DNA of 62,911 bases, filler included, from Kipferlia bialata (GCA_003568945.1; 5 parts of 5 records of this genome joined end to end with filler, not necessarily neighbours in it); one strand, 5' to 3'. Shown: positions 9,036-39,300, counted from the whole stretch's first letter. Translations and numbers: made by a program. Notes: generated by a model from the letters alone, not told the origin.

Positions 9036-10414
9036 GACACAAGAGCATCACGTCTTTCTGGGTGCACTCCCTATCAATGCCAAAGGTGTGTGGTCTGTTG
9101 CTGCATTAATCACTCTGCCTAGACACTCACACGAGCGTGTGTGTTGTATCTTCCGTTTAGTTCAGTCACAGGGTTACTTCGGACCTATGTCTCTATCTCT
9201 ATCTCTATCCCTAACCCCAGGCTGACCGTGCCAACCCCCTCTCTAGGGGTGACAGTGAGAGGGTGTCCGAGGCAGAGGACATGAGGGGGAGGGAGGAGTC
9301 GACAGAGACCGAGGAAGGGGTCTTTGCGAGTGAGTCGGAAAGAGAGAGGGAGAGAGAGAGAGAGGGTGAGACTGGCACTGGGTTGGAGAGGGAAGACGGG
9401 AGAGAAGGGGAGAGAGAGGAAATGCAGCGCAAGAGAGACATATTTGTCAGAAGTGCCGCTGGGTACTGTGTGGCCACATTCCTATTAGGTGCGTATATGT
9501 GTATTTGGTGTGCTGTTGGTGGCCCAACTCATCATCTTGCCTCTCTCTCTCTCTCTCTCCCTGTCTCTTATGTCCAGGCATTGGCGACCGTCACCTTGAG
9601 AACCTCCTCCTCGACTATGAGGGCAGACTGTTCCACATCGACTTTGGGTTCATACTCGGTATGTGTCAGTCTATATTGTAACTGGTTACTTTACTGTATA
9701 CTGGCTAGGCATACTCTAGTGCACTTTCTTCGAGTCAATTGCCGATATTCTTCACCATCTGACCCCCAGGCCGTGACCCGAAGCCCCTCCCCCCGCCCAT
9801 GAAGATCAACAAGGACATGGTGCTTGCAATGGGTGGACCCACCAGCCAGGTACCCGCTTGTATATACAGTGACTTGTCTATATTTGTTTATGTATTACAT
9901 ATATGTGTCTGACCCCCAGGGCTATGCCCGCTTCCTGTCCCTGTCCTCCGAGGCCTATAACATCCTGAGGCGGAATGCAGGGACAGTGGTGGCCACGCTC
10001 AAGCTGTGCGCCGCAACAGGTATGAATGCCACATTGCAATCGCTTGAGTGTGCACATGTGTCTCCCTGACCCCCAGGCATTGAGACTCTGCAGGCCGAGG
10101 ACGCCTCGTCCTTCCAAGATACGGTGGGTAGATACAGACTGGAGCTCAGTGACGAGAGAGCAGGGGCACACTTCAGAACAAGGTGGGGCAGATACTAGTG
10201 TGTATCTACCCATGATTGGACATTGTGGACGTAAACATCCCCTTCTCTCTCTCTAACTGCCAGGCTGAAGCACAGTGTGGATGCCCTGTTCCACTTTCTC
10301 TCTCTCTCTCGTTCTCTCTCTCTGACTGCCAGGCTGAAGCACAGTGTGGATGCCCTGTTCCCTGTCATTCTGGACCACTTCCACAGGCTGGTCCAGAACT
10401 ACTGGAGGGCATGA
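9036..10414 (+). CDS. VPS34: Class III phosphatidylinositol 3-kinase, C-terminal part of the kinase domain only
   Basis: Spliced: [54 protein letters not shown]...AYNILRR...[11 protein letters not shown]...[14 protein letters not shown] and the C-terminal YW are Vps34 signatures. Confidence 0.92.
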
Positions 10415-10655
10415 GGTGTATCACTGTCACTCTAATTGAGCACTTGTGGAACAGCGATACTTATACTGAAACAGGTCCAGAACTACTGGAGGGCATGAGG
10501 ACGCTATCCTTTTAGTATAACTCTAATAGAATACAGCTCTTGGAACATGGTAACATTATGATTCTAGTTGTACAGATCATTCACTTCCTGACACGGTAAC
10601 AAAATGAATGCTTTTCTACAGTATGAAATTGTGCTCTCTAAGAGGCCACATGATG

Positions 10656-10785
10656 TGCAGCTCCAGGTCTCCTACCCATATGGTTCACAGAGACCCTGGG
10701 CATCAACAGTATCTGATATACAGATACATGTATATACATCAACTGGCAAGAGAACCCTGGTGAGTCACCCACCTTCAACGCTGCA
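10656..10785 (-). promoter_or_regulatory. Candidate type II SECIS element, split by a predicted 77-nt 3'-UTR intron (10696-10772)
   Basis: After splicing: UGCAG-CGU-UGAA-GGGUCUCUGUG-AA-CCAUAUGG-GUA-GGAGACCU-GGAG-CUGCA. This gives stem I UGCAG/CUGCA, a GA/GA core, an 8-bp stem II, AA 11 nt above the core and an apical mini-stem. Confidence 0.7.
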
Positions 10786-10809
10786 TGCTGTTTGATGGAC
10801 CAATCTCCT

Positions 10810-11091
10810 CTACTTGAGTAGTTCCCTGATGGTCTCTACTATCCTACTTGCGGTCGGGTACCGATTGGAGGATCCCTAGATGAGCAGACAGAGAACATCA
10901 TATGAATTCAACTCCCTACTACTCAATCAGTATCCCAGTCTGAATGTATCGCTCACCCTGGAAAATACTGTCTGGCCGTCACATGATATGTCAAAGACAC
11001 CATAAGCGTCAGTCTGGGATGTAGTGACCTGTGGTGGGGGAAAGCAGGAGGGGTAATGTGGAGAGAGAGAACCAGTAGGAAGAGAGAAGAT

Positions 11092-11126
<35 letters not shown>

Positions 11127-11352
11127 TGCCGACCTCCGCCTCAGGGAACTCCCCCCTCAGAGTATCGGCAAGGGTATAGACATACCGACTGACACCTCAG
11201 GAGAAGGTGAACTGAACGTGAGAGATGACTCTTACTAGATAAGAGAGAGATGGTTAGAGAGAGAGGTGGGTGGGAGGGAGGGGGGGGGGGGGTAATGTAG
11301 ATTCATATATGCCCTGATACAACTGGCTAGGTACCTGAATATCAATGAGCAT
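10810..11352 (-). CDS. SelW/SelT/SelH (Rdx) family selenoprotein, 77 aa; exons 11352-11335, 11211-11134, 11028-10957, 10875-10810
   Basis: Three phase-0 GT-AG introns give MLIDIQFTFSUGVSRYVYTLADTLRGEFPEAEVTTSQTDAYGVFDISCDGQTVFSRGSSNRYPTASRIVETIRELLK*, with TGA at 11197-11199. Matches the Rdx pattern xxxUG...L...FP...GxFxIxxDGxxVFS...YP. Confidence 0.88.
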
Positions 11353-11687
11353 CTCTGTTGCGCACTCCGCTAGGAGACAGTCAAGGCCATCTCTATTCGT
11401 GTCTGCTGCACCCCTAGCCAAACACAGCTGAGGGGGGTCTCACATGCTCGACGAGCAGAATGGACAATTCACCTTTCTACTGTATACGTGCTTCTGACTG
11501 CGAGAGATACCCTCCAGGCGGTATGGAGCTGGGATGCATCAGCCTGGACAGTGTATGCAGTGTCTCCTTCACTCATCACTGTCTGACTACCACAGCACTT
11601 ACCCCCGTATCTGGAGAGAGTAGGACACCCTAGCTGACTGACCTCGTGGCACCCTTGGTGTATCTGTACCAGCATTACCAGTGAGAG

Positions 11688-14509
11688 ATGGTCCACAGGA
11701 CAGTGGTCGTGACTGGGGGCTCAGGGTTTGTGGGCCAGTATGTATGTGCCGCAGTACACAATGCAGGTGAGGGCTGACCCCATGTATATCGCGTTAGTAT
11801 TCCCTGTTAAGAGACTTCTCTATCCCCCCCCCCCCCTCCTGTCAACCTTCCCCTCATCCCTAGGCTACAGACTGAAGGTGCTTGTCCGCCCCACCTCCGA
11901 CACCTCCCGCATCCTAGTCCCCTTTGAGCCAGTACTAGGCAATGTCAACGACACAGAGTCGATGCAGAAGGTATGGATATGCACAAGGATGTATTCTATT
12001 TAGTTGTAGGTACCCTCTATTCTCTCTCCCCTCCCCCCTCGCCCCAGGCCTTCTCCGGGTGCCATGCTGTCATCCACCTGGCCTGTCCCTCGGCATGGAG
12101 TATGCTCAGCAGCCCAGGGGTGGTGGACGTCATACAGGTATGCTATATAGCGTGTGTACACTAATTAGCCAAGTAATTTGGGGTTGTCCATGTCATACAG
12201 GTATATACAATATATATATCTACATATTTATAGGACGTTGGCAACTGGAGGAGACATGTGAGTACTATGGGCTATCACCATGTGTATTTTCACCCTCAGG
12301 TTGGGACTGAGAATGTCATTGCGGCATGTAAGGCAGTGGGGGTGCCCAGGCTGGTGTACATGTCATCGGCTGCGGCAACAGGTACGTACATGATGTATCC
12401 ATTATATATAAGTATACACAGATCAGGACTCGCTTTCTCTCACGGTAGGAGGCTCAGCCGAGCCCTGTCCCCAGCTGCCAGAGAGGCCTGACCCTACGCG
12501 GTGTGGGGACATGTACTACGCTAGAGGTATATATGTATATCATGCAACATATGTATGTGATATATTCATTGTACTACAAGACAGACACTCCCCTATCTGA
12601 CATACTCCTTACCCCCAGGCAAAGCCCTTGCAGAGCTCTCCGTGCTAGAGTATGCCAACTCTCTCGGGGACCTTGCTGGTGAGTAGCCATATATATATAT
12701 ATGCAGCATACGTGCATTGATACCTCTTGTCCTACTCTCTGACCCCCAGCCCCCTCCGACACCTCCAGCGACTATGTGGCCCCCAGCGTCATAGACAGTG
12801 AGGACAGTCAGGCACCCAGGGTGGTCATCATTAGGCCTGGGGAGGTGTTCGGTCCACATGACACAGGTGGGTGGGTATATATATATTAATATTTATACTT
12901 CAGTATGTAATACACCCACTCCAGGCCACATCACGTCCTCTGACTTTGTGTCCCTGGTCCCCACCTCCTCCCCCCCTCTGCCTGTGCTGGTGCCAGACGG
13001 GGGGGTCACGGCGGTGGATGCTAGGTATACCTATGTACATATCAATGACTTAATAATAGTGACTCACAGCGGTGGATGCTAGGTATATACACATATATAC
13101 ACATATATACACATATGTATAAACACAAAAGTGTGCAACGTCTCCTATCTGACCCCAGAGATGTAGCCCAAGCCACAGTTGCAGCCATAGAGAGGGGGAG
13201 GCATGGTACCATATACAATCTAGGTATAGGGGTGTGTCAGGATACACAGATGTCTTAGGGGCATAGACTATCTACGCTAATAGCTTACATATAGGGGGAG
13301 AGAATGTGACCATCCGCGAGTTAGCCAGACGCAGCCAGTGCCTCATGGGTGTCTTTGGGGTGGGTGTCCATACCCTTGACCTCTCTGCATGTTTATCCAC
13401 TCTCTGACCCCCAGCTCATTGTGGTGCCCAGTCCATGGCTGACAAGGACAGTCATCAGGGCAGGTATATAATCATACATTCTTATGGTATGTATGGTGGT
13501 GTATAGGTCTGATACCCAGGAGAGTCAGGGCAGCTACACTACTCTATTATATGTGTATACCATGTGTATCTTTGTATAACCAATGCTTATATGTATCCAG
13601 TCACAGTTATGGTCATCCACCTCTTTCCATGTTTCTCACCCTCTAGGCATGGCCCTCCCATGGCACCCAGCATGGGCCGTGACAGGCCACTATGCACAGA
13701 GGTATTTACAGATGTATATCACTATATCTGTGTTGACAGTCTCACCCCCAGATACTGGCTACTGGACTGCACCTCTAGTTACAGAGACCTAGGCTTCTCC
13801 CCGAGGTCTCTAGACCTAACCCTCTATGACACACTCTCCTGGCTGTGTGAGAGTGGGGGGATGGGCAAGAGGTAGATAGTTACGGATATAGATATCAAGT
13901 GTATATACAAAGGGTCACCTTCTCTATTCACTCAAACTAGGTTCCGCTCCCGCAAGCCCTCTGCATCCAGTCTGTCCAGACACTCCCAGGCAGCGTTGAA
14001 GGTGGGGCATATGTATATGTGTGTATATATATATATGTGTATACGTATATATAGGGATCGACTAGATTTACCAGTCTGTCCAGACACTCCCAGGCAGCGT
14101 TGACGCTAGGGGTATGTCATAGGACTCTGGTAGATCTTGTCTACCAGTCTAGTGTCCATCTGTATGTATGTCTGCTTCCCGACTTACTCCCAGGTGCACC
14201 TGAGTGCCGGGTCTGTCCCCCCCACCCTGCATGGGCCATCAGTCGGTATCACAGATGTCACAACACTCCCTCTCAACACTGCAGTGCACAAGTTCGACCC
14301 CATCAGGTGACAGTGAAGGACTACACTATAGTGATGTTATTGATATGTAGAATTGATTTGGTTGGGCAACCTCAGCCGTTGACTCATTACATTGTTGATA
14401 TGTATTATGTATTAATGATATGCACATATATGTGATACATATGCATATCCCTCTGATACCCAGGTCAGTGGACGAAGAGGAGGAGGGTGGCAGGGGCATC
14501 GGGAGGTAG
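11688..14509 (+). CDS. Extended SDR, NAD-dependent epimerase/dehydratase (HpnA / dihydroflavonol reductase / 3-beta-HSD-like), many introns
   Basis: MVHRTVVVTGGSGFVG Rossmann motif, GCHAVIHLA, GTENVIAACKAVGVPRLVYMSS, YARGK (YxxxK), RPGEVFGPHD, VDARDVAQA, RDLGFSPRSL. Confidence 0.85.
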
Positions 14510-14781
14510 AGAGATATGAGTTTATGCCCGAGACAGTCAGAGTCAATAGAGATTCCACATACTCTAAGGATAGTACTATCGTCCACTAGCAGTCCATCCT
14601 ACCCAGCGTGGAGAGGAGAGGCACCTTAGTAATAGATGCAAGGAGTACTAGGTTCCCCGTGACAGGTTTCCACACAAACTGATGAAACGTGTGACAAGTC
14701 CTACTTTGTCAAAAGGGTGCAGCGTTTTGTCTCTTCTTCAAGTGTGCCATCTCGCAGACTCTTTATCCACACTTACTGAAG

Positions 14782-17240
14782 ATGGGAGATTGTACGTGGG
14801 AATGGTACCATTATATGTTGAGTTTCATGTGCCGCAGTAGAATATAAGTGTTTGTGAGCACATACCTGTTGTGTCTGTCGTTTGTGGTTGAGATTAGTGA
14901 CATCAAGTATGACGTGGTCAGGCAAGTCCCTCACCCCCAGGTGCTAACTGCCCAAGCAGAGGAACATGCGGAAAGGCCCAGGGTATGTGGTGTTGTACCC
15001 TATATGTGATGTTGACGGTCTAATAGCCCAGTCTCACAGGAATCAATAATCTGCTTCATTTGATGTGGGCCATTGATTATATTGATCCTTGTCTCACAAC
15101 CAGCCCAGGACGCCAAGCCCGACCCATGTGCTGGATGCCCTAGCAGGAGCGCCTGTGCCTCTGCTGGCAAGGGATGTGGAGGCAAGCCCCAGGTATGTGA
15201 GCCCTGTATCGATGTGTTGTCTCTTTGACACTGATGAGCATCTGAGACGCCACTCTCATGCATCAATGTACATCGACACAGTGTTATCTGTGCTACAATA
15301 CACTACCGTATCTTACCCACAGGAGCCTGCCTGTGAGAACGCCGGGTCCGACAAGTGTGCAGGGTGCCCCAGCAGGTAACCATTAGATGCATTAACTATT
15401 TATCGAAATACATATTGATTTCATATTTCTACTCCTGTCTCACCCTCAGGGCCACCTGTGCCAGTGCCAAGGGTGCCGCTGCCGCCGCCCCCAACCCCAT
15501 CCACGCCAGGGTCGCCGAGCGCTTCGCCAACGTCAAGGTACACATTCATATTACTCTCTCTCTATACATATACATATTACCTATCCCATTGTATGTTCTA
15601 CTATTTAGTGTTGCTCTGGTTCAGGGAACCAATACCCCCCCCCCCGTTGGCTAGTATGTCTATCTCTCTCCCTCACCCCAGAACGTGATTGTCGTGCTCT
15701 CCGGCAAGGGAGGTGTTGGCAAGTCCACCGTGGCCGCACAGCTCGCATACCACCTCGGAAGGGCCTATGGTGCCCAGGTATATTCTCTCGCTTCTGCGTA
15801 TATGTGTAAACTAGCCTCTCTCTCTCACTGCCTTTCGGTGCCTCCCCTTACCCCAGGTCGGTCTCCTTGACATCGATATCTGCGGACCCTCTGTGCCCAC
15901 CCTCACCAGCACCAAGGTATAGCATCTCTCTCTTTCTCTCCCTCCCCCCCGCTCTATCTCTGGTTCTTAACCCCTTACCCCCCTCTCTTCTATTCTTTCT
16001 ATCTCCCCCCTAGGGCCACGAGATCCACAACTCCGGCCTCGGCTGGGAGCCCGTGATGGTGAACGAGAACCTCAGCGTCATGTCCATCGGATACATGCTG
16101 GCAGACGATGACGCCGCTGTCATCTGGAGGGGACCCAGGTAGACAAGCGAATGAATATATACAGTGTATAAATATATATATATATATACATGTGTGTATA
16201 TCCCTCACTCCCAGGAAGAACAGCATGATCCAGCAGTTCGTGACCGAGGTGTGGTGGGGTGAGCTCGACTACCTCATCATCGACACCCCCCCAGGTACAC
16301 GCCTAGTGCATATATATACATTTATATAGCAACTATCTCATCCCCCCCCCCCAGGTACAGGCATAGTGCATATATATACATTTATATAGCAACTATCTCA
16401 TCCCCCCCCCCCTCACCCCAGGCACCTCCGACGAGCACCTGTCCATCCTCAACCTCCTCACCCCCTCCCTCAAGAACAAGCCCTGCGGAGCTGTCATCGT
16501 GTCCACCCCCCAGGTACACACACTGCACTAGCTGCCCCCTTTCTATCTCCCCCCACCTCTCTCACTCCCCACCTCCATTCACCCCCCTCTGCCTCTCTCT
16601 ATATCCCTCTCTCCATATATATCTCCCCTCACCCCCAGGAGGTGGCCCTTGCCGATGTGCGCAAGGAGATCAACTTCTGCCACAAGGTGACCCTGCCCGT
16701 GTTTGGTGTCGTTGAGAACATGTCTGGCTTCGTGTGCCCAGGCTGCAAGACTGAGACCACCATCTTCCACCCATCCAACGGAGGTGAGGAACAGTGTAGT
16801 GTGCATACCTCTCTCCCTCACTCTCTCTCCCTCACCCCCAGGTGCCAGAGGCATGGCCGAGCGCATGTCTGTGCCTTTCCTTGGCAGACTCCCCCTTGAT
16901 ATGCACCTGGTTAGGGCATCCGAGGAGGGCAGGTACTACTATCATAGTATATACACACACCTTCATCATGGATTTGTATTCTATCCACTGACCCCTCTAG
17001 GTGCTGGGCCGGTATGGTTGCCCAGATGTCCGACATCCCAGCCGACGAGGCTGCCCAGAAGGAGCAGGTATGGCCCATGTGCCTCTCTCTCTCTCTCTGT
17101 CTGTCTCTCTCCCCCCCCCCCTCTCACCCCAGGTCGATGACTTCTACGGCAACCCAGGTCTTAGGATGTTCTCCGAGACCGTGGACAAGCTCCTCATCAA
17201 CCTGCATGGCGTGGCCCCTGAGAAGGAGCAGGCCTGCTAG
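14782..17240 (+). CDS. NBP35: Cytosolic Fe-S cluster assembly scaffold, Mrp/Nbp35 P-loop NTPase
   Basis: N-terminal Cys motifs, [86 protein letters not shown] at 17238-17240. Confidence 0.95.
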
Positions 17241-17590
17241 GCAGCACTAGACCAAGAGCACCACTAGGGTAGTGGGATAGAGGCATATATGGACTCTAGT
17301 CACTAGCCTGGGTGCCGCATGATTATTATAGCCATTCCTAACCGTTCGAATAGAGAAGTGTGGAAGTGATATATCATAGTGACGGCTGTAGGTTCTGTCA
17401 TGGAGAAGAAATCTGTTACCCCTCCTGTCACGGAGAGAAGGGTTTATCTAATAGTCTTTGGCGGATTGATCGAAAAGTCCGATCAATTTCGTAAGTCCGA
17501 CAGCTCGATTCCCAACTTGCTTCCTTCGGCTGTAAGGGCATTGAAATGGCGGGTCATAGCGGCCCAGGCCCTGACAGGGTCATAGTCACA

Positions 17591-17643
17591 ATGGCCAGGG
17601 TGAGGCCCATGGAACAGGACGGAGACAATACCCTCAGCTGCAG
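17591..17643 (+). CDS. Possible first exon of a gene cut by the contig end
   Basis: ATG, a short open frame and a CAG|GTATG donor, with an upstream AAGGGTTTA motif. No homology cue. Confidence 0.3.
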
Positions 17644-17941
17644 GTATGTGCTAGCTCGTGACTGCTGCTATACTACACAGAACTTGCTTTGCCTAGTGTA
17701 ACTCCCATCCTAGCTGTCCCGACTCTACATACCCAGTTTAAATAGGGTATATGTCCCTTTAGTGCCGTATCTGACTCCAGTGGCTCGAGTGTAACCATCA
17801 CACACCCTGCACTGAGGGAGAGCACAGAATTCCAATTCGATAAGGTATGTGGTGATAGTACGCCATTCAGACTGAATTGGTTCCCAGTATGTGTGCAAGA
17901 TATCATATATTCCCCCTGTGTAGTGGATAGACGGAGATGTA

Positions 17942-17993
<52 letters not shown>

Positions 17994-18093
17994 NNNNNNN
18001 NNNNNNNNNNNNNNNNNNNNNNNNNNNNNNNNNNNNNTTAATTAATTAANNNNNNNNNNNNNNNNNNNNNNNNNNNNNNNNNNNNNNNNNNNN
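17994..18093. other. Artificial contig spacer (N44-TTAATTAATTAA-N44)
   Basis: All-frame stop linker flanked by Ns. Confidence 0.98.
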
Positions 18094-18115
18094 CAGACGT
18101 GTGCTCTTCCGATCT
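18094..18115 (+). other. Illumina TruSeq adapter remnant
   Basis: CAGACGTGTGCTCTTCCGATCT at the contig start matches the 3' part of the TruSeq read-2/index adapter sequence. Confidence 0.95.
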
Positions 18116-18161
18116 CAGTCAATGTGTCCCTCTATGTCTTTCCCCCCCCCCCCCCCCCCAG

Positions 18162-21100
18162 TCAATCTCACCCGAGGACTCTCTTCATGGTCACTCTGGG
18201 ACCAGCTCCTTCCGTCGCGATGACTTTGGCACCAGCCTAGCCATCGACGCCCACTCTGACGGGTCTGCCCGACTGTTATGCGGCAGTCCCAATGGGGTGG
18301 GGGTGTTCACTAGGGGTGCTGGGGCAGACGGTGTGTGGGCTGAGGTGTCCTCCCCATTCAACAGTGCAGCAGAGGTGGTAGGGGTGGCTGTGTACGGGGA
18401 CTGGATGACAGCAGGTGGGTGCATATCTCTCACACTATCACTATCACACTATCACTATACACACATATATATGTGTATATATATGTGGGTACATTACGTG
18501 ACTGGATGGCAGCAGGTGGGTATATACACATGGATATGCATGGGAGTAAATTATGTCCTCCTATAGAGAGATATTCTGTATACATGTCATTCACAAATAG
18601 TATTAGATAGTATAGAGATGGCATATATATATGGCATACACATGGCATATTCTTACTTTGATATAGGGGGCAAGGCGGGTGGCAATATGTATGTGAGTAA
18701 CAGGACTTTCTTTTGTACATGTTTCTATGTATCCATAATCCATGTCAATATCTATCCGTATATATATATATATATATATATATCCATAGATTTATATCTA
18801 AGTACATATATACTGTATATATGCCTATATCTACTTCTCATCCCAGTCGGACCCAAGGGTGGACGCACCAAGTTGGCTGGGGGGTATAGGGCAGACTTCT
18901 ATGGAGACGTGTCAGCTGTAGCTCTTGGAGAGGTGGATGGCAAGGTATGTATATATATCCATTTGTTGCTATTAGTATGTGTATATATACTCTTTCATTT
19001 GTGTATATACTATAATTATGTCTCTATACCTGAGGTGGATGGCAAGGTATTATAGATAGTAATGTATATATATGTCTCTATACCACTTATATCTAGTCTG
19101 TACTAGAGGTGGGTGGCGCAGTATTAAGAAATGTATCCATATATGTCTGTGTGCTGGGGTGTGATCATAGCCTCCACCCTTTGTGCATTACATATTCTGT
19201 CTGTTTTGGTCCTACTATGACTCCCTTTCACCCCAGATGACAGCTGTGTATGTAGCGAAGGAGTATGGCAACTACGTTGCCTTGACCTGGCAGCAGTGGC
19301 CAGATGGATGGGAGTTCCATTCTAGGGTATACTATGGTAGGAGCTATAGTGCCCTTCTGCTACCCCATGACCACATGCTGTTTGGGGACACCCTCAGGCT
19401 GCACTCTCCCAACACCCTGACAGAGGAGGGGGACCCCATAGCAGGGACCGGTAGCTGGGTGGAGGTGGCTGAGATAGACACGGGCTGCTACTCCAGAAGG
19501 GAGTGGGCCTACTCTCCCTCTGTGGCTGCTGATACCTTCCTAGTGGTGGGTGACCCTTATGCAGAGGAGGCTGTGCAGTACCAGGGGGTAGTGGCTGTGA
19601 GGGAGATATCTGCCCCTGGTGTTGGTGGTGTGACTGCAGTGATCGAGGCCACCCCAGGCGAGGTGTGTGGGGAGACCTCTGTCACAGTCTCTCTGTCTGA
19701 CACTGCGTCTGGTGCATATGGGGGCGATGTGCTATCTGCACTGCTAGGCCTAGTGGTCACAGTCAACGGGGCATCCTTCCACGCACCCACACCGACGGGA
19801 GAGACAGGTACCTATATACGTGTGCGTCTATTCTGGGACAGTGTAGCTATATATGTGACATGGAGTAGAACATGAGCCATTGCAGCATTCTATCACATCA
19901 AGAGCTTGCTTCTTACAACAGGTGTGTATTCCGTGAGTCTTCCCCTGCCTAGCACCCCAGGCCCCCATTCCATCTCTGCTACCATCAACGGTGCCCAGGT
20001 TGGCAGCACCTCCCTCTCCCTCTCCCGTACCGTGGACGTGGCACTCTCCTCCCTCCACCTGCCGTTAGAGGTAGCAGTAGACACTCCATTCTCTGCTAAG
20101 GTTGTACCAAGGGATCACTGTGGGGCCATGCTCACCGGACTCTCCCTTACTCTCTCCACCGAGGCTGATGGTGTCATTAGTACTCTCTCAGATGCCTCTG
20201 GATACACAGTGTCGGGTCTGACCGTGCCCAGTCCCCAATCTTTGTGCTACACAGCCACTGTGGTAGGGTCTCCCTCTGACACTTGGTCCAACTGTGTATC
20301 TGGGGTGTCTGGTGTTGTCTCAGAGCTACCGACAGAGCCATACCTAGACGCGGATGTTAACGGAGAGTGGCTGGCCTTTGCCTATAGCGGTAGGGACGTG
20401 TCCCTGTTCCACATGCTTGATGGTCACTGGGTACCACACAGCACACTCCCAGAGACTGTGCACCTGTCATTCGCCAAGGACATATATCTGTTCACCCACT
20501 CACAGGAGACCCTCTCTGAGTATAGATATGACGCGGAGGGTGATGTGTGGACACTGATGTCGACAGGGCCTCTCAGAGGAGACAACTTTGCCACCAACGG
20601 AGACTCAGCTGTGGGGTTCTACAACTACGATGCCGATGACCACTCCTCCTGGGGCCAGTACGGACACGCCCTGGACAGGTACATGTATATGTATCTATAT
20701 ATGTATATCTATACTTGTGGATATGGATATATCATGTCCCCTTTCTCCTCTGCCGATTCCTTGTATATCGTCTGTCTGTCAACATATATGTCCCCAATGC
20801 TGTCTTGTCTCTCAGTCTCTCACCTCCAGGTATTACTCCGTCAGATTCGACCACCCTGAGGTAAGAGTGGTTTGCGTAGCAGAAGTATCCGACTGATATA
20901 CCCTTGAGTGCCAAATGCTGTCCTGATATTTCACCATTGATCATTCTTTACCATCTCAATTCCTGTATGTTTCTCTATCCAATACTGACACTCACTGCAG
21001 ACAAGCATAAGCGGGATAGACTCATACAACCGTATCTATGGGGCCGCTGCTGGTGCTGGGTGGTTTGTGCTGACGGCCCGCAACTCCTCCACATCTTCAT

Positions 21101-27100: not shown

Positions 27101-28811
27101 GGGCGGGTGGGGCAGTGACCTCTCCTTACCTGCGTCCTTGAGCGACAATGGAAGCCAGTACACCATCTCGGTACCACGTCCTTCGGAGGTAGGCACTTTC
27201 ACCTTCAACCTGGCTCTTGGTGGTGTTGTGGTGTACTCGAGGGACTACGAAGTGATAGCGCCATACGATCCCGCTAGTTCCCGTCTTCTATTGCGCGACA
27301 CGGGCTATGTGAGAGATCATGCAGTGGCTGGGGAGCCCTTCGACGTATCTGTTCAGCTGGTTGATGCCAACGGTGGGTACGCCAGCGCTGAGACAGTCAG
27401 TATGGTGGTGTCGGACCCAGAGGGAAACAGTGTGTCGGTGGTATCGACAGTGGCATCAGGCTCTAGTGGTTACTACGAAGGGGAGGTCACCGTGCCTTCA
27501 GCCGGGGAGTACACAATTAGTGCTGAAGTTGCGGGCAGCACTCAACCTCCTATCAGTGACTCACCTCTAACTGTGTATGCTGGTGACTTTGGCCTAGACA
27601 TTGGACACTACGGCACTATGTGGATGGCTGTCCTAGAGAGTGGGTCCTCCCTTGTCGCCCCCACTGCGGCTCTTCCAGGTACTGACACTGACCCTAGCCG
27701 GCTTTATACCGCTGCTGTGAGTTTTGTCGATGCAGAAGGTCTCTATCCTGACTCGTCTATGCGGAGAGCCACTGTATCCGTCGACTTCTTCTCTGTTGAT
27801 GCCGTTGGAGACATGGAAGACGTTGTTGCGTCCCTGTCCTGCGACTATGATCAGTCTGGAGACGGTGTGCTCACCTTCACTGGGTATGCCCCACAGGATA
27901 TGGCCCAGTACACCCTGGCTGTCTCTGTTGGCGATGCTGCTCCGCTCTTCACCCAGGGTGTGGCCGTGTCTGTACCACTGACAGTCGGGGGCGTTGATGT
28001 CGCAGTCGCCGGTGTATCATGCGAGGAGGGCGATGATCCCCTTGAGATCACTCTCACGCAGGCCAGCTCCTCCCAGACTGTCACGTTTGTTGTCGATGCC
28101 TTCAGTCCAGACTTCACTGATAGCACGCCATTCAGCACCGGTAGTAAGGAGACTGTACCGTGTGAAGTTGACCTTAGCGATCACATCTGCGGCACGTGGA
28201 ACGGGTCTGGGTGTCAGCACCCAGAGTATCAGGGGGTTGGTGTGTACATGATGGAAGTCACAGCCCCTAACGTGTCGTCTGAAAGAACTCTCTTGTTTGA
28301 GATTAGTTGTGACGATGAGCCCCTGTTCTCCCAGAGTGTACAAGTGGCCCCTACCCCTACAGACCCTGAGTCCTCTCTTCCTATTATGCCCATAGCAGTT
28401 GGGGCGGTTGGAGTTGTGGGTGTGAGTGTGGGTCTGTGTGTGTGCTGCTCTGGGGATGACGAGGATAGTGTGAAGGAGGAGGAGGAGGATAAGAGTCAGC
28501 AGAAACAGGAGGAGGGTGTCCACGTGCCCTTCCCCCAGCCAGTACCCGTGGGACTGATACCCATACAGCTTGTGCCGGTGGAGCAGATGCCAGTCCCTGG
28601 GTTGGTGTATCCTCCCTCTGACCTCTCCAACCTCTCTCATCTCTCTGGTCCTGCCCCAGTGGCACTGGACCCCGGCCTGGGTGACGCTGGTGACACTGGT
28701 ACTGACACTGGTACGGAGGGGTGTCCGTCAGAGGCCGAGACTGAGGCTAGTCAGGTCACTCTGTACTGCAGTGATGTGGAGGGAAGCGAGACAGATACGG
28801 TGTCTGAGTGA
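18162..28811 (+). CDS. Giant type-I surface protein (about 3000 aa) with FG-GAP-like propeller repeats and Ig/filamin-like domains, 5'-truncated
   Basis: Repeated blades (DDFGTSLAI, SLGDGIALSPD, FGERVVM, FGEYIALSGDW, FGTSVALSPSG, GAGAVYVH) alternate with T/V/S-rich beta-sandwich segments (PRDxCG, VDANG). C-terminal TM IAVGAVGVVGVSVGLCVCC. Joins ORFs 19183, 19906, 21067, 22833 and 26895 via short introns. Confidence 0.8.
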
Positions 28812-29382
28812 GGTATTAGGAACTGAAATAGAGGTATATGAACGTATACTTCAAAGATGGGGAGTTGAATATGACCTTATCACATATATGCTCTGGCGAT
28901 CCATTCTTGTGAATTGTTGATGTTGCAGAACCAAAACCTACGATCTTGTAGTGATCGGAATTTCTATATACATTCCAATGACTTGGTGATATATAACCTG
29001 AGGTACACAGGTAGGAGCTGAATAGTCCCGAGTGCCAATGTGAGGAAGACAACGTATGACATGGATGAGGGAGAATGCTTTGTTTTGTAATGTATCCTAT
29101 TTCTGAGTCCTCTCTCATTACGATACTGAAGATCATATTCCCACACTATTATGGAGAGTTTCTTCTTATACATAGGGAGTGGGCCATTCTGGCTCGTACA
29201 AGAGTGTTCATCAGATGTAAAGCTTCAGAGTTGGAGCATGTATGTGACAGTGGTTGCGTGTGTTGAGATCGCAGAGAACTCTCTAGTTCCAAACCTAGAC
29301 CAATAATGATACGTCAATGACACTGAACTGTACTGGATACTGAAACTGATCACTTCTGGACACTGACTGGCTCTTTTTAGTG

Positions 29383-32300
29383 ATGATTCTATTAGTCCTC
29401 GCCCTACTCTTGGCCGTACTGGTGGGAGGCATTGTGTGCCTATGCCTGTACGGTAGGTTCAAGCCGTCCCCCTATCTGGTTGAGTTCCGGTCCCCCTCCT
29501 TTGCCTCTGCCTCCTCCTCCCGAGGGAGGGTGGGCGACACAGGGCTCCTCACCCACATGGAGTGTGCACAGACACTCTCAGAGGACCTTGCAGACGTATA
29601 CGTCAGGGGCAAGAGGAAGGAGAGGCTTCGCGTGTATGTCTCACCCGCCTTTGACCCCCGCATCAGACGGTACTCATACAGCCCATACCGGCTGTCTGAC
29701 AAGCTCTCTCTCTCCCTGGCATGGAGTGCTGATGTCACCCAAGTGACAGTGGATGGTATGGAGGTGCGTATGGAGGCCAAGGTGGAGCTCCTGGCCTCCA
29801 ACCACGGGCATGAGGTGGAGATTGTGGGTAGGACTGCAGATGGCAGACAGGCCTCATACTCTGTGGTCATCATGCCCTGGTTCATGCAGCCCATCTGCAA
29901 TGAGGTGCACCAGGTGGACCAGGTGGCACCCGGCATCATGACAGGTAGGGGGTGCATAGCCTGTGTACAGGAGGATCTCAATACTACTGATACTGATACT
30001 GATACTGCACCCGGCATCATGACAGGTGGGTTGCACAGGAGGAGACATGGGTATTGGCTTATCTCTTTGCCCCCCCCCCTCCCCCACTCTACCTTCCTTC
30101 TCTCTCTCTCCCTCTCCCCCCCCCCCGATGTGTCTGTCTCTCTCACTGCCATCTGTCTCTGAGTTATCACTGGTCTCTCTCTCTACCCCCCAGGCATGAG
30201 CTCTGTGTGCACTGTGCTGAAGCCATTCGGCATGAAGAGGATGCTGTGGAACATGCTCAACACAGTTGGGTTCAGAGGTAATTATGTGACATGTGATTAT
30301 ATATCCCAGGGCACTGATCTTCAGGCCTCCTGCGTATACTCAAGAGCCGCAGGAACAGTCCCTTCATGGATATTGGTGACCCCTTGGTGCAGAAGTACCT
30401 GGACCCAAACAGAGTGTACTGTCCGGGTATGACACACATACTCGTGTATAAACCAACATCTCTCTCTATATATGTACCCATGTATATTTGGATGTATGTG
30501 TGTATTCACTGGTACCTTGTGTGTGTCTCTCCCCCCCCCCATACCTCTCTCTGACCCCAGGCTCTGCCTTTGTGCTGGACATGTACGGCACACCCCTGCA
30601 GTACACAACAAGGCACGAGGGCAAATGTTTCTCTTCTAGCATTCTCAGTGCCACATATATAGACATACATATGTTCGTATACAGATTCGTTTAGAGATGG
30701 ACTGAATGGGACTATATGTATGCATTGCTTACAGTCAGAGACCTTCGCATGATCACCATACCCTATGCTCTACCCAGTGGCACCGGGGGTACCCTGGTGC
30801 CAGAGACAGGTGTGTAGTATAATATAACAGTATAACTCAATTCGCGTGCTAGACTGTACAATACCGTTATACATTCTCGTGCCTGAGACAGGTAGGTACA
30901 CAGTATGCATTATCTCTCTGTACTTCGAATTAATGCAACCCCCCCACCCTCCAACCCCCCAGGCTTCTTGTACAACACACCTGTGCAGGATGACCTCCTC
31001 AACTTCGCAGAGGCACCCTCCCGCACATTCATAGCAAACAGGTTTGTGTTGCATTGTGTGTATATTCACTCTTCATGTCTCCATTACATGTCTTTCTCAC
31101 TAAGTATGTTACCTCTTATACCTCTAACCCCGCCAGGTCTCTAGAGGGTGCTGTGGAGCTACCCCGTGTGCTTGAGCAGCATGACGACTCCCACGAGCTG
31201 TTCATCACCCCTAGGGGCACCCTCATGACCACATACTACAGGATGTACGAGAAGGGACACGTCCTGAACAACGGGGAGGTGGGGCTGAGAGTATGAACCC
31301 TTACCCATTTGTCTTCCCGCTGTCTCACCCTAGACCCTCGACCTAGCCGTAACCTCGTGCTACCTGGTGGAGAGGGACACTGAGGGACAGGTGGTGTGGG
31401 AGTGGGACAGCATCGACCACATCTACCCCGACCCAGACCCTGCCGTCTGCTACCAGCCCACAGAGGGGTTCAACTACCACGACTACTTCCACTGCAACGG
31501 GGCAAGGTGGGTATATATACTATTGTCAATGGTATTATATATATATATATTATACATTTCGTTTTATGTTTATGACTACCACGACTACTTCCACTGCAAC
31601 GGGGCAAGGTGTGTTTATGAATGCATGCAATGTTGTATATATGTGTAGTGTATGACTGCTTTCTTTCACTGCCACAGTTACACAAAGTCTCAGTATAATC
31701 GCGTGATGCATGCATGTTGCTATGATTCTACCACTGCTCTGACCCCCAAGGTTCAATGAGACGGACCCCAACGAGATGCTGATCACTGGTAGATACCTCA
31801 GGGGGTGCATCAGTGTAGACTATACAACAGGTGTACACTCCATATACACAGCCTCCTGACCTGTTGTATATATATTGTATACATATATTGAATACATATT
31901 GAATATATATGTATTATCGTGTCAATCTCCCTGTCTCTTACCCTCTAGGCGCTGTCAACTGGATCCTGGCCAACCCCTCCAACCCCCTCAACCAGTTCAC
32001 ATTTGTCAACGACCCCCTCGAGGGACCTGGCTCCTGCCATGCCGGACTACTCAATGGCAACACTCTGCTCCTGTTCGACAACGGTATGTCACCATATATG
32101 TATCCACAGTTGTTGCAGTAGAGTGTGTCTCTAGCCGTTGGTTATGCCTCACCCCAGGTGACTACCTGACCCCTGAGTACAAGGAGGGAGAGGAGGGATG
32201 CAGGCTGTTTGGCAGGGCCCCCACCCCCTGTGTGCACACCTACAGCAGGATGGTGGAGTACACCCTAGACATAGAGGCACGCACTGCCACATACGTCAGG

Positions 32301-35203: not shown

Positions 35204-35420
35204 AATAGACTCACATGCTGATGATTTACGTCTAGAGAATCAAAGTCTGATCCAATGGGTGAGTCTGGACACTAATAGATGATGACTTTCGTCTACACTG
35301 TTAAGTCTACCGTTTTTGAGTCAAAAGGGTTCACTCACATTCGGTGCATGTGCTTGGCTGTTCTGCCGTCTTGATCGCTGCGACCCGTACATCAAGCGTC
35401 AGCTGTGATTTCAGGCTTCC

Positions 35421-36025
35421 ATGTCCGAGGGCGAAGGGCTCGTGGAGGGGCTCCTTGCCTATATGGACGCCTCTGTGATCCAGGTAGGCGATAATGGGTC
35501 TATATTATCAGTATTGACACTGCCGCCACTCCTGTATCTATCCACTGTGTAATTGACACAATCACGTGTGGTGTCATCAGCAAGCAAGGCATCAATTCAA
35601 CTGCTGTTGTATCAGCCACCGTTTCTGTGATATGGAAGGTCATAATTGTGGCTTTGGTTTGGATTGTCAGCTGTCTATTCATTTGAGTCAGAATGAGACT
35701 GACCTTCAGGGCGAGATAGTGCCTACCCTCATCACAGCTGCCCTCTCGGCGTGTGTGGCCATTGTGATTCTGACGGACAAGGTACACTGGTCACCCACCC
35801 ACTGTCACTGTCACTTTCATCACTTTGCCTCTCTGTGCGTCTCACCCGCAGAACATGCGCTCCTCGCTCTACTTCCCTGCAGTGGCATTCGGTACGCACA
35901 CCTGCACCGCAATATGAGTCTCCCATATGCATATCGCTTGGCCCCTATTAGTGACTCATATTCTCATAGTGTCACTGCAGGTACCATCTTTTGTAGTCTC
36001 ATACCAGCACTACTGGAGAACGCAG
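35421..36025 (+). CDS. 5' part of a hypothetical membrane protein, cut by the contig end
   Basis: Four phase-compatible exons: MSEGEGLVEGLLAYMDASVIQ / NETDLQGEIVPTLITAALSACVAIVILTDK / NMRSSLYFPAVAF / GTIFCSLIPALLENA. Confidence 0.55.
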
Positions 36026-36065
36026 GTGCTCTCAGTACACGACTGATCAAGTTTGGTGCTCCAGC

Positions 36066-36165
36066 NNNNNNNNNNNNNNNNNNNNNNNNNNNNNNNNNNN
36101 NNNNNNNNNTTAATTAATTAANNNNNNNNNNNNNNNNNNNNNNNNNNNNNNNNNNNNNNNNNNNN
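36066..36165. other. Artificial contig spacer
   Basis: N44-TTAATTAATTAA-N44. Confidence 0.98.
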
Positions 36166-36217
<52 letters not shown>

Positions 36218-36372
36218 ATCTCTCTCTGTCTCTCTCCCCCCCCTCAGCCATACACTCTCTTCTTTCTCTCCTGTCCCTACTGCCAACGTGTCCATTTTCT
36301 GCCTCTCTCTCCTTCCAGGGAACCCCCCTCTCTTTCTCCTGCCTCTCTCTTTCTCTTGTCTCTCTCTTGTAG

Positions 36373-39300
36373 GGGCAGCTATGTTACTGGCCCTGGACAC
36401 AGAAGAGCTCTCTCTCTCTCTCCCTCTCTCAGCCCCAGGGCACCCTCCGCAACAGACCCAAGACATGGCACATGGGGGGCATGGCAGGGGTCATGGCACA
36501 GACAGCTCTCAACAGACAGGTGGGTGGGTGTCCCATACACTAATACACTCACATGGATATGTGTAGTCCCTGGGAACGACTGACCATGGACGTATATACC
36601 CCACGTCTATGATGTCCCCTCCCACCCCCCAGGTGTATGACGCCTCTGTCTCCCCCTTGATCCCCTCCATTGTGGAGGGGGACACGGCATGCTGCTTCTG
36701 CTACGGACACACAGGTGCTAACACACAATATCTATATTCTTATCAATAGCACAGATATGTCTCCTCTCATACCTAGAGGTGCTGACAAGACCCGCACCAT
36801 CATTGGATAAGCAGTCTGTGTATTTAAGACTTATATTGATATTTACTGCACATATTTGTCTGATTCAGGTGCTGCCAAGACCCACACCATCATAAGTAAC
36901 TAAAGTGCAATATGATATACTATACTAAGTGTATAGCTATGTATTCTACCACATACTAACTTAGTATTACTAAGCATCACTAAGTGTTACTAAGTATTAC
37001 TAAGTACATAGGTGCCGGCAAGACCCACACCATCATTGGATACAGTACCATACCTTACTCTACTAAGTATAAATATCTCTATATATTTCATACTACTTCA
37101 TACCATATACTAAGTATAGGTGCTGGCAAGACCCACACCGTCATGGGCTACAGGGGTGAGCCAGGCCTGTACTCCCTGGCCGCAGCTGATCTGTGTCACG
37201 CAATTGGGCAGAAGGTATTAGTATTGTAGCATATGGTAGGTGGGGGGCAGGTTCAAACAGTACCAATCAATATTCCCCCCCTATCAACTCACAATCACAT
37301 GAGACATAGGTTTAGCACACTACCAGAGAGGTATATTTTCCCTCCGTAACTCTCTTATGTCTCGGTCTCACCCCAGAATGCTGGCCTTTTGCTCCAGATC
37401 AGGTTTGCAGAGATATACAACGGGAAGGTATGGTGACTCTCTCTGCTCTCTTCCTCTCCCCCCACCTTGGGGTACTGACCATATACACACAGTATTCATT
37501 GATGCCATCTATACTGACCTCCAGGTGTATGACCTTCTGCGTGGCAGGGCTGAGTGCACAGCCAGACAGGCCGAGGACGGCAAGGTATGGGTATATGGAC
37601 TACACTCTGTATGGATATATTGTGTACATGTGTACATGTATGTGTTGACAGGCCGAGGACGGCAAAGTATATGTATATGGACTGTACTATGTATGACTAT
37701 GTGTTATAGAGTAGTATTTGTATCTGTTGACAGGTCAAGGACGTCAGTTTCATGTATACAAGACATACTATGCATCACTCATCGCCACTTCCCCCACCCC
37801 TTAGGTCCACATCCGGTCTGCTGCCCTCAAGGACGACAAGGGCCGTGTCACAGTACATCCCCTCCATGCACTGACCACAGACACACAGGAGGGTATGTCA
37901 CTTGTGTATATATATATATATGGTATATGTATATAGTATACATATATAGAGAGTGTATCAACTCTGCATCCCCTGCATGCACTGACCACAGACACACAGG
38001 AGGGTGGGGGGGGTGGCTGAATAACAGGCACAGAATGTATACAGAATGTAGTATACAATCCCTCCCTCTTATTCCAGGCCTCGATGCCATTGTTTCCCTG
38101 GTCATTTTCTATAGATAATATATAGCGTACGTGTTATATGCATATACAGTGTATATACCTTATCCCAGGCCTCGATGCCATTGTGGCCCAGGGCATGGCT
38201 GTCAGGAAGGTCGGGTCCTCCTCCCTACACGACGAGTCGAGTAGGTCACACGCCTTGCTCTACATAGAGGTATGGACAGATGCACATGTGCTACCGTCCC
38301 ATATCACGAAGTGTATTTGAGTAGGGAGGCTTGTCCCTCCCTCTCCAATCCATATTCGTAGTGTTGGTGTCCGTGTGTGGTGTTACTGTTAGTTGTATAA
38401 TGTGAATAGCACTACCGTATCTCTAACCCCTAAGGTTGTGAACCGTGCCCTGCTGTCACTGAGGGAGTCCATCATAGCACAGGAGGGCGAGGTGGCAAAG
38501 GCAGGTGGGTGGAGGGTGGTGGATGTCTATATATCATATAGTTGAGGTGGATCTCAGTACGGGATACTATTGGATGTTTGTGTAGTCGTCTGCCTGTACT
38601 TCACACACTGTCAATTGGCTACATTGTTGCCTCCTCACCCCCCAGGCCTCCCCTACGATGACCTGTATCTCAAGGAGCAGCACAAGATGTACAAGCTGGA
38701 TGAGGAGACAGGGCAGGTGCGGGGATACTGTACAACCACCCCAAACGGGCAAGTATGAATGTCTTGTTCTCACTCTACCAGTCCCATACTAACCCTAGTG
38801 GGGCCCTGCACCCCTGGCAGACTATGACTCAGAGGGTCTGGCAAGGCTCAAGGTGGGTCGGTACTGACGCCATCTCTACCAGTCATCTAGAGCGTAGTGG
38901 ATGTAGTTGTGTTAGCAGTTTACTGTATACTATCCTCTCTGTACACTGACATCAAGGTCGTGGTTGACAGAGAGGCAGCTATCCTGGCTGACTTGCAGGC
39001 TCAGGAACAGACAGTCGTGGAGGTAGGGGAATCCCTATATAGTCTCTCTCACACAGACTAATAGTATCACTCAATACACTAATACCATCAGGAGTGCCGT
39101 GCCCTTGGCCACACTGTGGGTGGCACCCTAGTGCTGATAGACCTGGCAGGGGCAGAGTATGGGATCACGGGCGGTAAGCAGGTAATACCTTGGTTTCTAT
39201 TAATACGCGTTGCATTCTATGACTATGTATGGGTTTGTACCTGACCTATAGGTGACCCCCAAGCAGAGAAGAGAGGGACAGGAGATCAACAAGACACTGC

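What the first reader, a model, noticed from the sequence alone, without database searches (positions are those of the whole stretch)
10256..38184. Window-wide pattern: introns contain tandem copies of their own splice junctions
Seen: at least 14 cases in six genes where 13-39 nt of exon edge, usually including the splice dinucleotide, recur 60-110 nt away inside the adjacent intron. Examples: 12129/12192, 13006/13064, 13967/14071, 18399/18500, 18930/19032/19106, 29926/30007, 30798/30880, 31473/31575, 37565/37647/37729, 37856/37967, 38074/38165. Most copies end in AG|GT and they range from identical to decayed. Known: tandem duplication across an AGGT proto-splice site is a proposed but rarely documented route of intron gain. 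Inference: an active local-duplication process is creating or lengthening introns, which could help explain intron richness relative to intron-poor diplomonads.
Basis: partly seen in the sequence, partly recalled or inferred. Interest (0 to 1): 0.8.

Follow-up and report, generated by a model that had tools for sequence, protein, structure and literature searches.

The report
Introns carrying copies of their junctions
In this Kipferlia bialata sequence about one intron in ten holds a second copy of its own exon edge and splice signal 58-143 bases inside the intron; these copies likely arose from small duplication-insertion mutations that lengthen existing introns rather than create new ones.

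Summary
All listed coordinates hold, at 15 loci in six genes. Exact non-simple repeats of 16 nt or more occur 11 times at offsets 60-119, against 2 over offsets 500-3999. Of 126 predicted introns, 11 hold a copy of their own 5' junction and 3 a copy of their 3' junction, each scoring above every control intron. Copies always lie on the intron side. Independent DNA contigs carry them at the depths expected for real copies, so they are not an assembly artefact.

The outer copy is the working splice site. One RNA contig, the public gene models and Pfam coordinates support this. The exception is an annotated 27-residue insert in the arylsulfotransferase that bacterial homologues lack.

Affected introns are about twice as long as the rest (median 162 against 85 nt). 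Only 5 loci are true tandem duplications. The others are an exon-edge copy plus unrelated TA-rich filler with sharp borders. Every event abuts an existing intron, and no intron shows a birth signature. So the evidence supports intron lengthening with a decoy site left inside, not intron creation.

The mechanism is inferred: error-prone repair or replication, filtered by selection. Why borders sit at the junction is unexplained. The window is five unlinked scaffolds joined by linkers.

The parts
10238..10361 (+). 3'-junction duplication in the PI-kinase gene. Polypyrimidine tract, branch motif, AG and 29 nt of exon head occur twice (10238-10292 and 10307-10361), 69 nt apart. The predicted intron 10183-10332 uses the second copy.
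   Evidence: junction query scores 64, null maximum 17; offset -69
10390..10500 (+). 27-nt perfect duplicate (10390-10416 and 10474-10500) covering the last codons and stop codon of the PI-kinase gene. The second copy lies 84 nt downstream of the coding end. It is an exon edge, but not a demonstrated splice junction.
12117..12299 (+). SDR gene. Exon tail plus GTAT at 12129-12141 is repeated at 12192-12204 (63 nt apart; 21/25 if extended to 12117). The intron 12138-12299 is spliced from the outer donor in the public gene model.
13006..13158 (+). SDR gene. Exon tail plus GTATA at 13006-13029 is repeated at 13064-13087 (58 nt apart). Intron 13025-13158; the public model uses the outer donor.
13967..14193 (+). 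SDR gene. A 33-nt exact exon-tail copy (13967-13999 and 14071-14103, 104 nt apart). The inner splice dinucleotide is destroyed. Intron 14002-14193; the public model uses the outer donor.
16286..16421 (+). NBP35-like gene. A true 60-nt tandem duplication (16286-16345 and 16346-16405, 97%), bounded by C7 runs, inside intron 16295-16421.
   Evidence: ParA profile 96-121 before the intron and 123-146 after it.
18399..18846 (+). Exon tail plus GTGGGT at 18399-18420 is repeated at 18500-18521 (101 nt apart), inside the 432-nt intron 18415-18846.
   Evidence: an RNA contig joins 18411 to 18844, GT..AG, cut +3. Also.
18930..19236 (+). Three serial copies of exon tail plus GTAT (18930, 19032, 19106). 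The filler between them is weakly related, so this is an older tandem array. The intron runs from 18945 to 19236 on the simplest reading.
   Evidence: empirical p 0.006 and 0.013; a DNA contig spans 18796-30069 with no differences.
29926..30193 (+). Arylsulfotransferase gene. A 21-nt exon tail plus GT is repeated 81 nt downstream (29926 and 30007). The public model uses the inner donor at 30026 and so translates a 27-residue insert.
   Evidence: (insert absent from two homologues)
30798..30962 (+). Arylsulfotransferase gene. A decayed exon-tail copy (30798 and 30880, 82 nt apart) in intron 30810-30962; the public model uses the outer donor.
31473..31750 (+). Arylsulfotransferase gene. A 44-nt copy (31473-31516 and 31575-31618, 102 nt apart) in intron 31507-31750; the public model uses the outer donor.
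   Evidence: the repeated part has depth 1300 against about 500 for the flanks, and a 125-nt contig at depth 600 bridges the filler.
36775..37153 (+). Kinesin gene. Four copies of 3' splice site plus P-loop exon head. Copies 1-3 are decayed pseudo-exons inside intron 36715-37119. Copy 4, at 37116, is the real exon start.
   Evidence: Kinesin profile 58-84 before the intron and 86-115 after it.
37565..37804 (+). Kinesin gene. An 82-nt unit (exon tail, 5' splice site and intron start) occurs three times in tandem (37565, 37647, 37729), with identity falling down the series. Intron 37585-37804.
   Evidence: empirical p 0
37856..38196 (+). Kinesin intron 37893-38168 carries both kinds of copy: a 5'-junction copy (37856-37894 and 37967-38005, 111 nt apart) and a 3'-junction copy (38068-38093 and 38159-38184, 91 nt apart). 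They flank a 74-nt core that looks like the original intron.
   Evidence: scores 52 and 48 against null maxima 20 and 19
17994..18093 (.). Artificial linker (44 N, a 12-base stop-in-all-frames word, 44 N). The same linker occurs at 36066, 46991 and 58171, so the window is five separate scaffolds.

Best explanation
These are real short duplication-insertion mutations in the Kipferlia bialata nuclear genome, likely made by error-prone break repair or replication slippage. Each placed a second copy of an exon edge with its splice signal 58-143 nt inside the adjoining, already existing intron.

Shown:
- The outer copy stays the working splice site, the inner copy sits in the intron as a decoy, and the intron is about twice the usual length.
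- Five loci are full head-to-tail duplications. One of them (16286) is bounded by C7 microhomology.
- The other loci have only the exon edge duplicated (13-55 nt, mostly 95-100% identical), separated by 19-83 nt of unrelated, mostly TA-rich filler.

Inferred:
- The sequence after the inner copy is the original intron, and the filler plus edge copy was added.
- Selection removes any event that does not leave an intact outer junction, which is why copies are seen only on the intron side.

Not explained:
- Why the copy border sits 1-10 nt past the junction.
- Where the filler comes from.
For: Reality of the copies:
- Offset-specific excess of repeats.
- Excess of own-junction copies over control introns.
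- A DNA contig built independently from reads spans 18796-30069 with no differences. At 31473 the repeated part has about 2.6 times the flank depth, and the filler is at full depth.

Outer site in use:
- RNA contig joint 18411>18844.
- The public AUGUSTUS models, built with transcript hints, use the outer donor at 5 of the 6 events in the two genes retrieved.
- Pfam profile coordinates run on without a gap across introns 16295-16421 and 36715-37119.

Lengthening: 13 affected introns have a median of 162 nt; 113 unaffected have 85 nt; p = 5e-6.

Original intron lies after the inner copy:
- Its lengths (71-99 nt in 5 of 8 events) fit the normal distribution better than filler plus remainder, log-likelihood difference 6.9.
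- Beyond the shared bases, the sequence after the inner copy still matches the 5' splice consensus, combined p = 0.005-0.008.

Insertion is the derived state: the 27-residue insert made by the 29926 event is absent from two homologues.

Two classes of event.

Continuing process: identity ranges from 100% down to about 70%, and the older inner donors are degraded.
Against: - No mechanism was observed directly.
- Random events plus selection do not explain two things. Purely intronic duplicates, which should be neutral, are nearly absent. The copy border lies within the first 31% of the copy in 9 of 9 edge-only 5' events, P about 2.5e-5 under a uniform model; this is a post hoc test.
- Only one event has direct RNA support.
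- Intron coordinates come from my own gene finder. It matched 4 of 6 RNA joints exactly, matched all introns of the SDR model, and differed at 2 exons of the arylsulfotransferase model.
- Without an outgroup, direction is inferred for all events except 29926.
- Events are uneven: 5/63, 6/18, 2/18, 0/20 and 0/7 introns on the five scaffolds, chi-square p = 0.008. This is unexplained.
Confidence: 0.6

Rival explanations
1. Classical intron creation. Tandem duplication of an exon segment across AGGT makes a new intron between the two AGGT sites, and this process drives intron richness.
For: - Ten of 11 outer 5' junctions are AG|GT.
- Unit sizes (median 84 nt, range 58-143, 19 spacings) match the normal intron length (median 85 nt).
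- At 16286 the inner AG is an excellent acceptor (12.6), so that unit could splice on its own.
- The model itself is accepted in the literature (review PMC3443670, passages read; PMC2891723, passages read).
Against: - Every event abuts an existing intron; none interrupts a formerly continuous exon.
- Inner acceptors are poor at 8 of the 9 sites where an AG is present.
- No excess similarity between intron start and downstream exon start, or between intron end and upstream exon end, in 126 introns (p = 0.53 and 0.88).
- In most events only the exon edge is duplicated, not the whole unit.
Confidence: 0.1
2. All events are plain head-to-tail tandem duplications. The TA- and TG-rich intron part turns over so fast, by slippage and indels, that only the complex exon-derived part stays recognisable.
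For: - There is a graded series: 16286 (97% over the whole unit); 37565 (exon part 19/20, intron part about 71%); 29926 (similarity runs about 30 nt past the copy with a 12-nt indel, then a hexanucleotide repeat); 18930 (weak filler similarity).
- Affected introns are rich in TA simple sequence: TATA density 0.094, against 0.035 for unaffected introns in the 10-38.2 kb span and 0.02 for introns outside it.
Against: - Copies 95-100% identical over 22-50 nt sit next to complex, non-repetitive filler that has no counterpart after the second copy (13006, 37856, 38068, 10390). Neutral decay cannot produce such a step.
- Left borders are sharp in 11 of 12 events.
Confidence: 0.15
3. Templated patch insertion. 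A break in the middle of an existing longer intron was repaired with a short copy of the nearby exon edge (polymerase-theta-like end joining). Filler and remainder together would then be the original intron.
For: - Copy lengths (13-55 nt) and distances (under about 110 nt) are on the scale reported for templated insertions. This scale is recalled; only search listings were seen.
- The filler looks like ordinary intron sequence and has no other source in the window.
Against: - The sequence after the inner copy keeps the 5' splice consensus beyond the copied bases (p = 0.005-0.008). A mid-intron break point would not do this.
- The implied original introns would be unusually long (median about 175 nt against 85 nt; log-likelihood 6.9 worse).
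Confidence: 0.1
4. Assembly artefact, such as collapsed haplotypes or wrongly joined contig ends.
For: The assembly comes from short reads only (SPAdes; methods passage of PMC5874029). The only DNA run found may be the same data.
Against: - Contigs rebuilt from the reads by another assembler contain the filler-to-copy joins with no differences.
- Depth is about double on the repeated part and full, not half, on the filler.
- 96% of sampled 31-mers of 10256-17900 are present in that run.
Confidence: 0.02
5. The inner copies are kept by selection as functional decoy or alternative splice sites that regulate expression or add protein segments.
For: - Inner donors score as high as outer ones at the young events.
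- Ten of 19 spacings are multiples of three (expected 6.3, p = 0.065).
- Three in-frame retained segments are open (18930, 29926, 31473).
- One is translated in the public model.
Against: - Older inner donors are degraded or lost (13967, 19032, 19106, 37647, 37729).
- Most retained segments contain stops or shift the frame.
- The open segments encode low-complexity sequence.
Confidence: 0.05

Closest known systems
Intron gain by tandem genomic duplication across an AGGT proto-splice site (Rogers model; review PMC3443670, Drosophila cases in PMC2891723)
   Same: Short local duplication, duplicated AG|GT, unit size equal to a typical intron, coding sequence restored by splicing.
   Different: Here the duplicated AG|GT is an existing exon-intron junction, so an old intron grows and no new one is born. 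In most events only the exon edge is duplicated and the rest of the unit is unrelated filler. The footprints are fresh, whereas the Drosophila paper says such footprints may already be lost.
[quoted passage not shown]
   Same: Direct repeat, then inserted sequence of unknown origin, then direct repeat. The inserts are of intron size.
   Different: The repeats here are 13-55 nt, longer than the 'short' repeats described in that review. One border is pinned just inside the intron. The events sit at existing junctions rather than at intron-less sites.
Introner elements and transposon-derived introns with co-opted target-site duplications
   Same: An inserted segment flanked by a duplication that supplies a splice site.
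   Different: The fillers form no sequence family and have no terminal inverted repeats. Duplication length is variable rather than fixed.
Tandem exon duplication giving pseudo-exons or mutually exclusive exons
   Same: The kinesin array at 36775-37153 repeats a 3' splice site plus exon head four times.
   Different: Only the exon head is repeated, not whole exons. Copies 1-3 carry P-loop substitutions or lack a donor, and they lie within one intron by Pfam coordinates.

Membership tests
Tandem-duplication intron gain (AGGT model) | The duplicated segment contains AG|GT | tested here: met
   Ten of 11 outer 5' junctions are AG|GT; 37856 is GG|GT.
Tandem-duplication intron gain (AGGT model) | The whole unit is repeated head to tail | tested here: inconclusive
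   Met at 5 loci (16286, 37565, 18930/19032, and 29926 in part). Not met at 8 of 13 5' pairs, where filler and following sequence are unrelated, nor at the 3'-type loci 38068 and 10243.
Tandem-duplication intron gain (AGGT model) | The new intron lies between the two AGGT sites in a formerly continuous exon | tested here: not met
   All events abut an existing intron. The inner AG is a poor acceptor at 8 of the 9 sites where an AG is present. No birth signature in 126 introns.
Break-repair intron gain (Daphnia type) | Direct repeats flank an insert with no local source | tested here: met
   Repeat-filler-repeat anatomy with sharp borders. The only non-simple filler match elsewhere in the window is a shared hexanucleotide repeat. 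The rest of the genome could not be searched.
Break-repair intron gain (Daphnia type) | The insert creates an intron at a site that had none | tested here: not met
   As above: the sequence after the inner copy is a complete intron of normal length with its own consensus.
Introner or transposon-derived intron | Inserts belong to a repeated sequence family | tested here: not met
   Across 77 filler-filler pairs, similarity is no higher than for 1040 filler-control intron pairs (medians 17 and 15, maxima 51 and 54). This covers the window only.
Introner or transposon-derived intron | Terminal inverted repeats and a target duplication of fixed length | tested here: not met
   Terminal inverted-repeat scores are 4-12, against a control 95th percentile of 12. 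Duplications vary from 13 to 55 nt.

The most novel reading that the evidence does not exclude
Kipferlia introns grow by a junction-anchored process. It copies the exon edge and stacks an intron-sized (about 60-110 nt) module of orphan TA-rich sequence, with its own 5' splice signal, onto an existing intron. The break or copying step is tied to the exon-intron border itself, through transcription or splicing or through the GC-to-AT transition. Genome-wide, this would be a main engine of intron expansion, and possibly of intron gain, in this lineage.
Probability: 0.15. Interest if true: 0.85.

Novelty: new variant of a known kind. Interest (0 to 1): 0.6.

Why it matters
Fresh molecular footprints of intron change are rare. 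Most proposed routes of intron gain or growth rest on old, eroded examples. Here about one intron in ten in a small sample carries a young, readable footprint.

If the same rate holds across the roughly 125,000 introns reported for this genome (PMC5874029), there would be thousands of dated events. They could be used to measure how introns lengthen, how decoy splice sites are tolerated or removed, and whether the same process ever seeds new introns.

There is also a practical side. The inner sites mislead gene prediction: one public protein model carries a 27-residue insert that its homologues lack.

Tried and rejected
- No whole genome is held for this window. A genome-wide scan and a search for the source of the filler were therefore impossible.
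- No listed run is on record as RNA. X2 behaves as RNA because it has GT..AG joints.
- The first attempt to lay reads failed on the linker N runs.
So there are no read data for 10-18 kb or 36-38.7 kb.
- The RNA table was cut (8 joints not shown). It showed no joint at 18930, 29926, 30798 or 31473.
- The first self-trained gene finder over-predicted (329 and 349 introns) and was discarded for a stricter one. That one still drew false introns across two linkers; these were excluded from all tests.
- A filler search against the window gave only simple-sequence hits.
- The search for the public kinesin model found nothing.
- Pfam gave no hit for several short exons, so the junctions at 12137, 13024, 14001 and 37892 rest on the public model or on my model alone.
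- I considered unequal exchange between alleles with unrelated introns. It would explain borders at the junction, but I rejected it because the exon copies are identical at synonymous sites as well.
- I considered reverse-transcriptase stops at the lariat branch for the 3'-type copies. I rejected this because all three copies extend upstream of the branch motif.
- A 'hot region' reading was dropped once the window proved to be five unlinked scaffolds.
- Literature searches for a prior description of junction copies found none (the word 'duplicat' does not occur in the genome paper). Supplements were not opened.


Full report
**What the window is.** It is eukaryotic nuclear DNA with many short GT..AG introns. 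Two exon translations are 100% identical to NCBI proteins of Kipferlia bialata: an arylsulfotransferase (P0001) and the SDR-type protein KIPB_002823 (P0004).

The window is not one locus. Four 100-base linkers (44 N, a 12-base word, 44 N) at 17994, 36066, 46991 and 58171 join five separate scaffolds. The published assembly is a SPAdes short-read assembly annotated with AUGUSTUS and transcript hints (methods passages of PMC5874029).

**The observation.** In all there are 15:
- 11 copies of a 5' junction: 12129, 13006, 13967, 16286, 18399, 18930, 29926, 30798, 31473, 37565, 37856.
- 3 copies of a 3' junction: 10238, 38068, and the four-copy array 36775-37153.
- 1 at the stop codon of the PI-kinase gene: 10390.

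They lie in six genes on three of the five scaffolds. Spacings are 58-143 nt (median 84, 19 spacings). The shared part is 13-55 nt, and the whole unit is shared at the tandem loci.

**More than chance.**
- Exact non-simple runs of 16 nt or more occur 11 times at offsets 60-119, once at 500-999, once at 1000-1999 and never at 2000-3999. Runs of 20 nt or more occur 8 times at offsets 60-119 and never at any offset from 120 to 3999.
- I wrote a small gene finder. It reproduces 4 of 6 RNA-supported introns exactly, with the donor right in the other two. It matches every intron of the public SDR model and differs at two exons of the arylsulfotransferase model.
- For 126 well-scoring introns, the exon tail plus 6 nt matched the intron's own interior better than any control intron in 11 cases (one marginal). 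The 3' junction did so in 3 cases (one marginal).
- Within +-800 nt of 252 junction queries, all 13 genuine copies lie on the intron side and none on the exon side.
- Among 36 exact pairs of 12 nt or more at offsets 30-250, none is exon-to-exon. The intron-to-intron pairs are simple repeats, consensus matches, one 39-nt minisatellite, or parts of the same junction events.

**Not an artefact.** Contigs built directly from a DNA run by a different assembler span 18796-30069 without a difference. That covers the copies at 18930, 19032 and 19106 and most of the 29926 pair. At 31473 the repeated part has depth 1300 against about 500 for the flanks, and a 125-nt contig at depth 600 bridges the filler. 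So the copy is present twice and the filler is not a half-depth allele. That run may be the data behind the assembly, so it excludes an assembler artefact but not a library artefact.

**Which copy is used.**
- An RNA contig joins 18411 to 18844 (GT..AG). The outer donor is therefore used, and the inner copy at 18500 lies in a 432-nt intron.
- The public models use the outer donor at 12138, 13025, 14002, 30810 and 31507.
- Pfam profile coordinates run on without a gap across 16295-16421 (ParA 96-121, then 123-146) and across 36715-37119 (Kinesin 58-84, then 86-115).
- The exception is 29926. The public model uses the inner donor and translates a 27-residue insert that repeats APGIMT. Two homologues lack this insert, and the outer-donor product aligns to them with 9 residues against 8.
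- Young inner donors score as high as outer ones. Older ones are degraded.

**Anatomy.** Call the shared part X, the sequence between the copies Y, and the sequence after the second copy Z.
- In 4 of 13 5' pairs Y resembles Z (16286, 37565, 18930, 19032; empirical p 0.013 or less). 29926 is partly so, with about 30 further similar bases, one 12-nt indel, and then a hexanucleotide repeat. These are true tandem duplications, and 16286 is bounded by C7 runs.
- In the other 8 pairs Y is no closer to Z than to unrelated introns (p 0.17-0.69). Left borders are sharp in 11 of 12 events.
- X reaches only 1-10 nt past the 5' junction. In the 3' type it reaches back just far enough to include the branch motif.
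- Fillers are TA-rich, share no family and have no terminal inverted repeats. The only non-simple filler match elsewhere in the window is a shared hexanucleotide repeat.

**Which part is original.** Affected introns are long: median 162 nt (n = 13) against 85 nt (n = 113), p = 5e-6. Taking Z as the original intron gives lengths of 71-99 nt in 5 of 8 events. This fits the normal distribution far better than Y plus Z, by a log-likelihood difference of 6.9.

Where X ends at +2, both Y and Z still continue with the 5' consensus, combined p = 0.003-0.009. Z has no reason to do this unless it was once the working intron start.

Intron 37893-38168 shows the pattern at both ends: a 74-nt core with its own signals, extended by 111 nt on the 5' side and 91 nt on the 3' side.

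**Creation or lengthening.** Every event abuts an existing intron. The AG at the end of the inner exon copy is a poor acceptor, scoring -10 to +1.1 at 8 of the 9 sites where an AG is present, against a median of 7.9 for real acceptors; 16286 is the exception. No excess similarity links intron starts to downstream exon starts, or intron ends to upstream exon ends, in 126 introns. So the window documents lengthening and decoy-site formation, not birth of introns.

**Mechanism (inferred).** Microhomology-bounded tandem duplication explains the full-unit class. The edge-only class looks like repeat-filler-repeat products of break repair, as proposed for Daphnia intron gain (review PMC3443670), but at existing junctions and with longer repeats. 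Selection explains why only intron-side copies with an intact outer signal are seen.

Selection does not explain the near absence of purely intronic duplicates. Nor does it explain why the border sits in the first 31% of the copy in 9 of 9 events (post hoc P about 2.5e-5). The stop-codon event at 10390 has the same border habit without a demonstrated splice site. This hints that the anchor may be the GC-rich to AT-rich transition rather than splicing.

Affected introns are the richest in TA simple sequence. That could be a cause or a consequence.

**Distribution.** Affected introns number 5 of 63, 6 of 18, 2 of 18, 0 of 20 and 0 of 7 on the five scaffolds (chi-square p = 0.008). Because the scaffolds are unlinked, the process looks genome-wide with gene-to-gene differences, not like one hot region.

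**Novelty.** The genome paper does not mention the pattern ('duplicat' occurs 0 times). Four searches found no description of it. It is a new variant of the known duplication and break-repair routes of intron change.

Noticed in passing
17994-18093, 36066-36165, 46991-47090, 58171-58270: Identical artificial linkers (44 N, a 12-base stop-in-all-frames word, 44 N). The window is therefore five scaffolds laid end to end. Gene models or 'regions' that cross them are meaningless; my gene finder drew introns across two of them.
   Followed up: yes
18094-18115: The first bases after a linker look like the reverse complement of an Illumina adapter (identity recalled, not tested). This would be adapter remnant at a scaffold end.
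   Followed up: no
17942-17993, 18138-18158, 46991 and 58171 flanks: Scaffold ends sit in long C or G homopolymer runs or CT repeats. This is probably where the short-read assembly broke.
   Followed up: no
29945-30025: The public arylsulfotransferase protein translates the 81-nt duplicated unit as a 27-residue insert that two homologues lack. This is either a mis-annotation or a recent exonisation.
   Followed up: partly
36959-37004: A 10-nt unit containing a branch-point-like ACTAAG motif is repeated four times just upstream of a pseudo-exon copy in the kinesin intron.
   Followed up: no
45500-45608 (- strand intron): A 39-nt minisatellite, about three copies at up to 97% identity. It is the only sizeable local repeat that is not tied to an exon edge.
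   Followed up: no
29985-30006; also 2075, 46009, 46520: A GATACT hexanucleotide repeat recurs at several places. In the DNA run, many different contigs end in it (loose ends).
   Followed up: no
window-wide, intron 3' ends: Introns end in a fused branch-point and acceptor motif (CT-N-AC, 3-5 mostly C bases, then AG). Exon flanks are strongly AG|G (93% G at -1, 79% A at -2). From memory, this resembles the conserved 3' motif of other metamonad introns.
   Followed up: partly
18666-18696: Inside the 432-nt intron, a stretch loosely resembles the tail of the next exon (18930 junction). It may be an old copy in the wrong intron, or chance.
   Followed up: no
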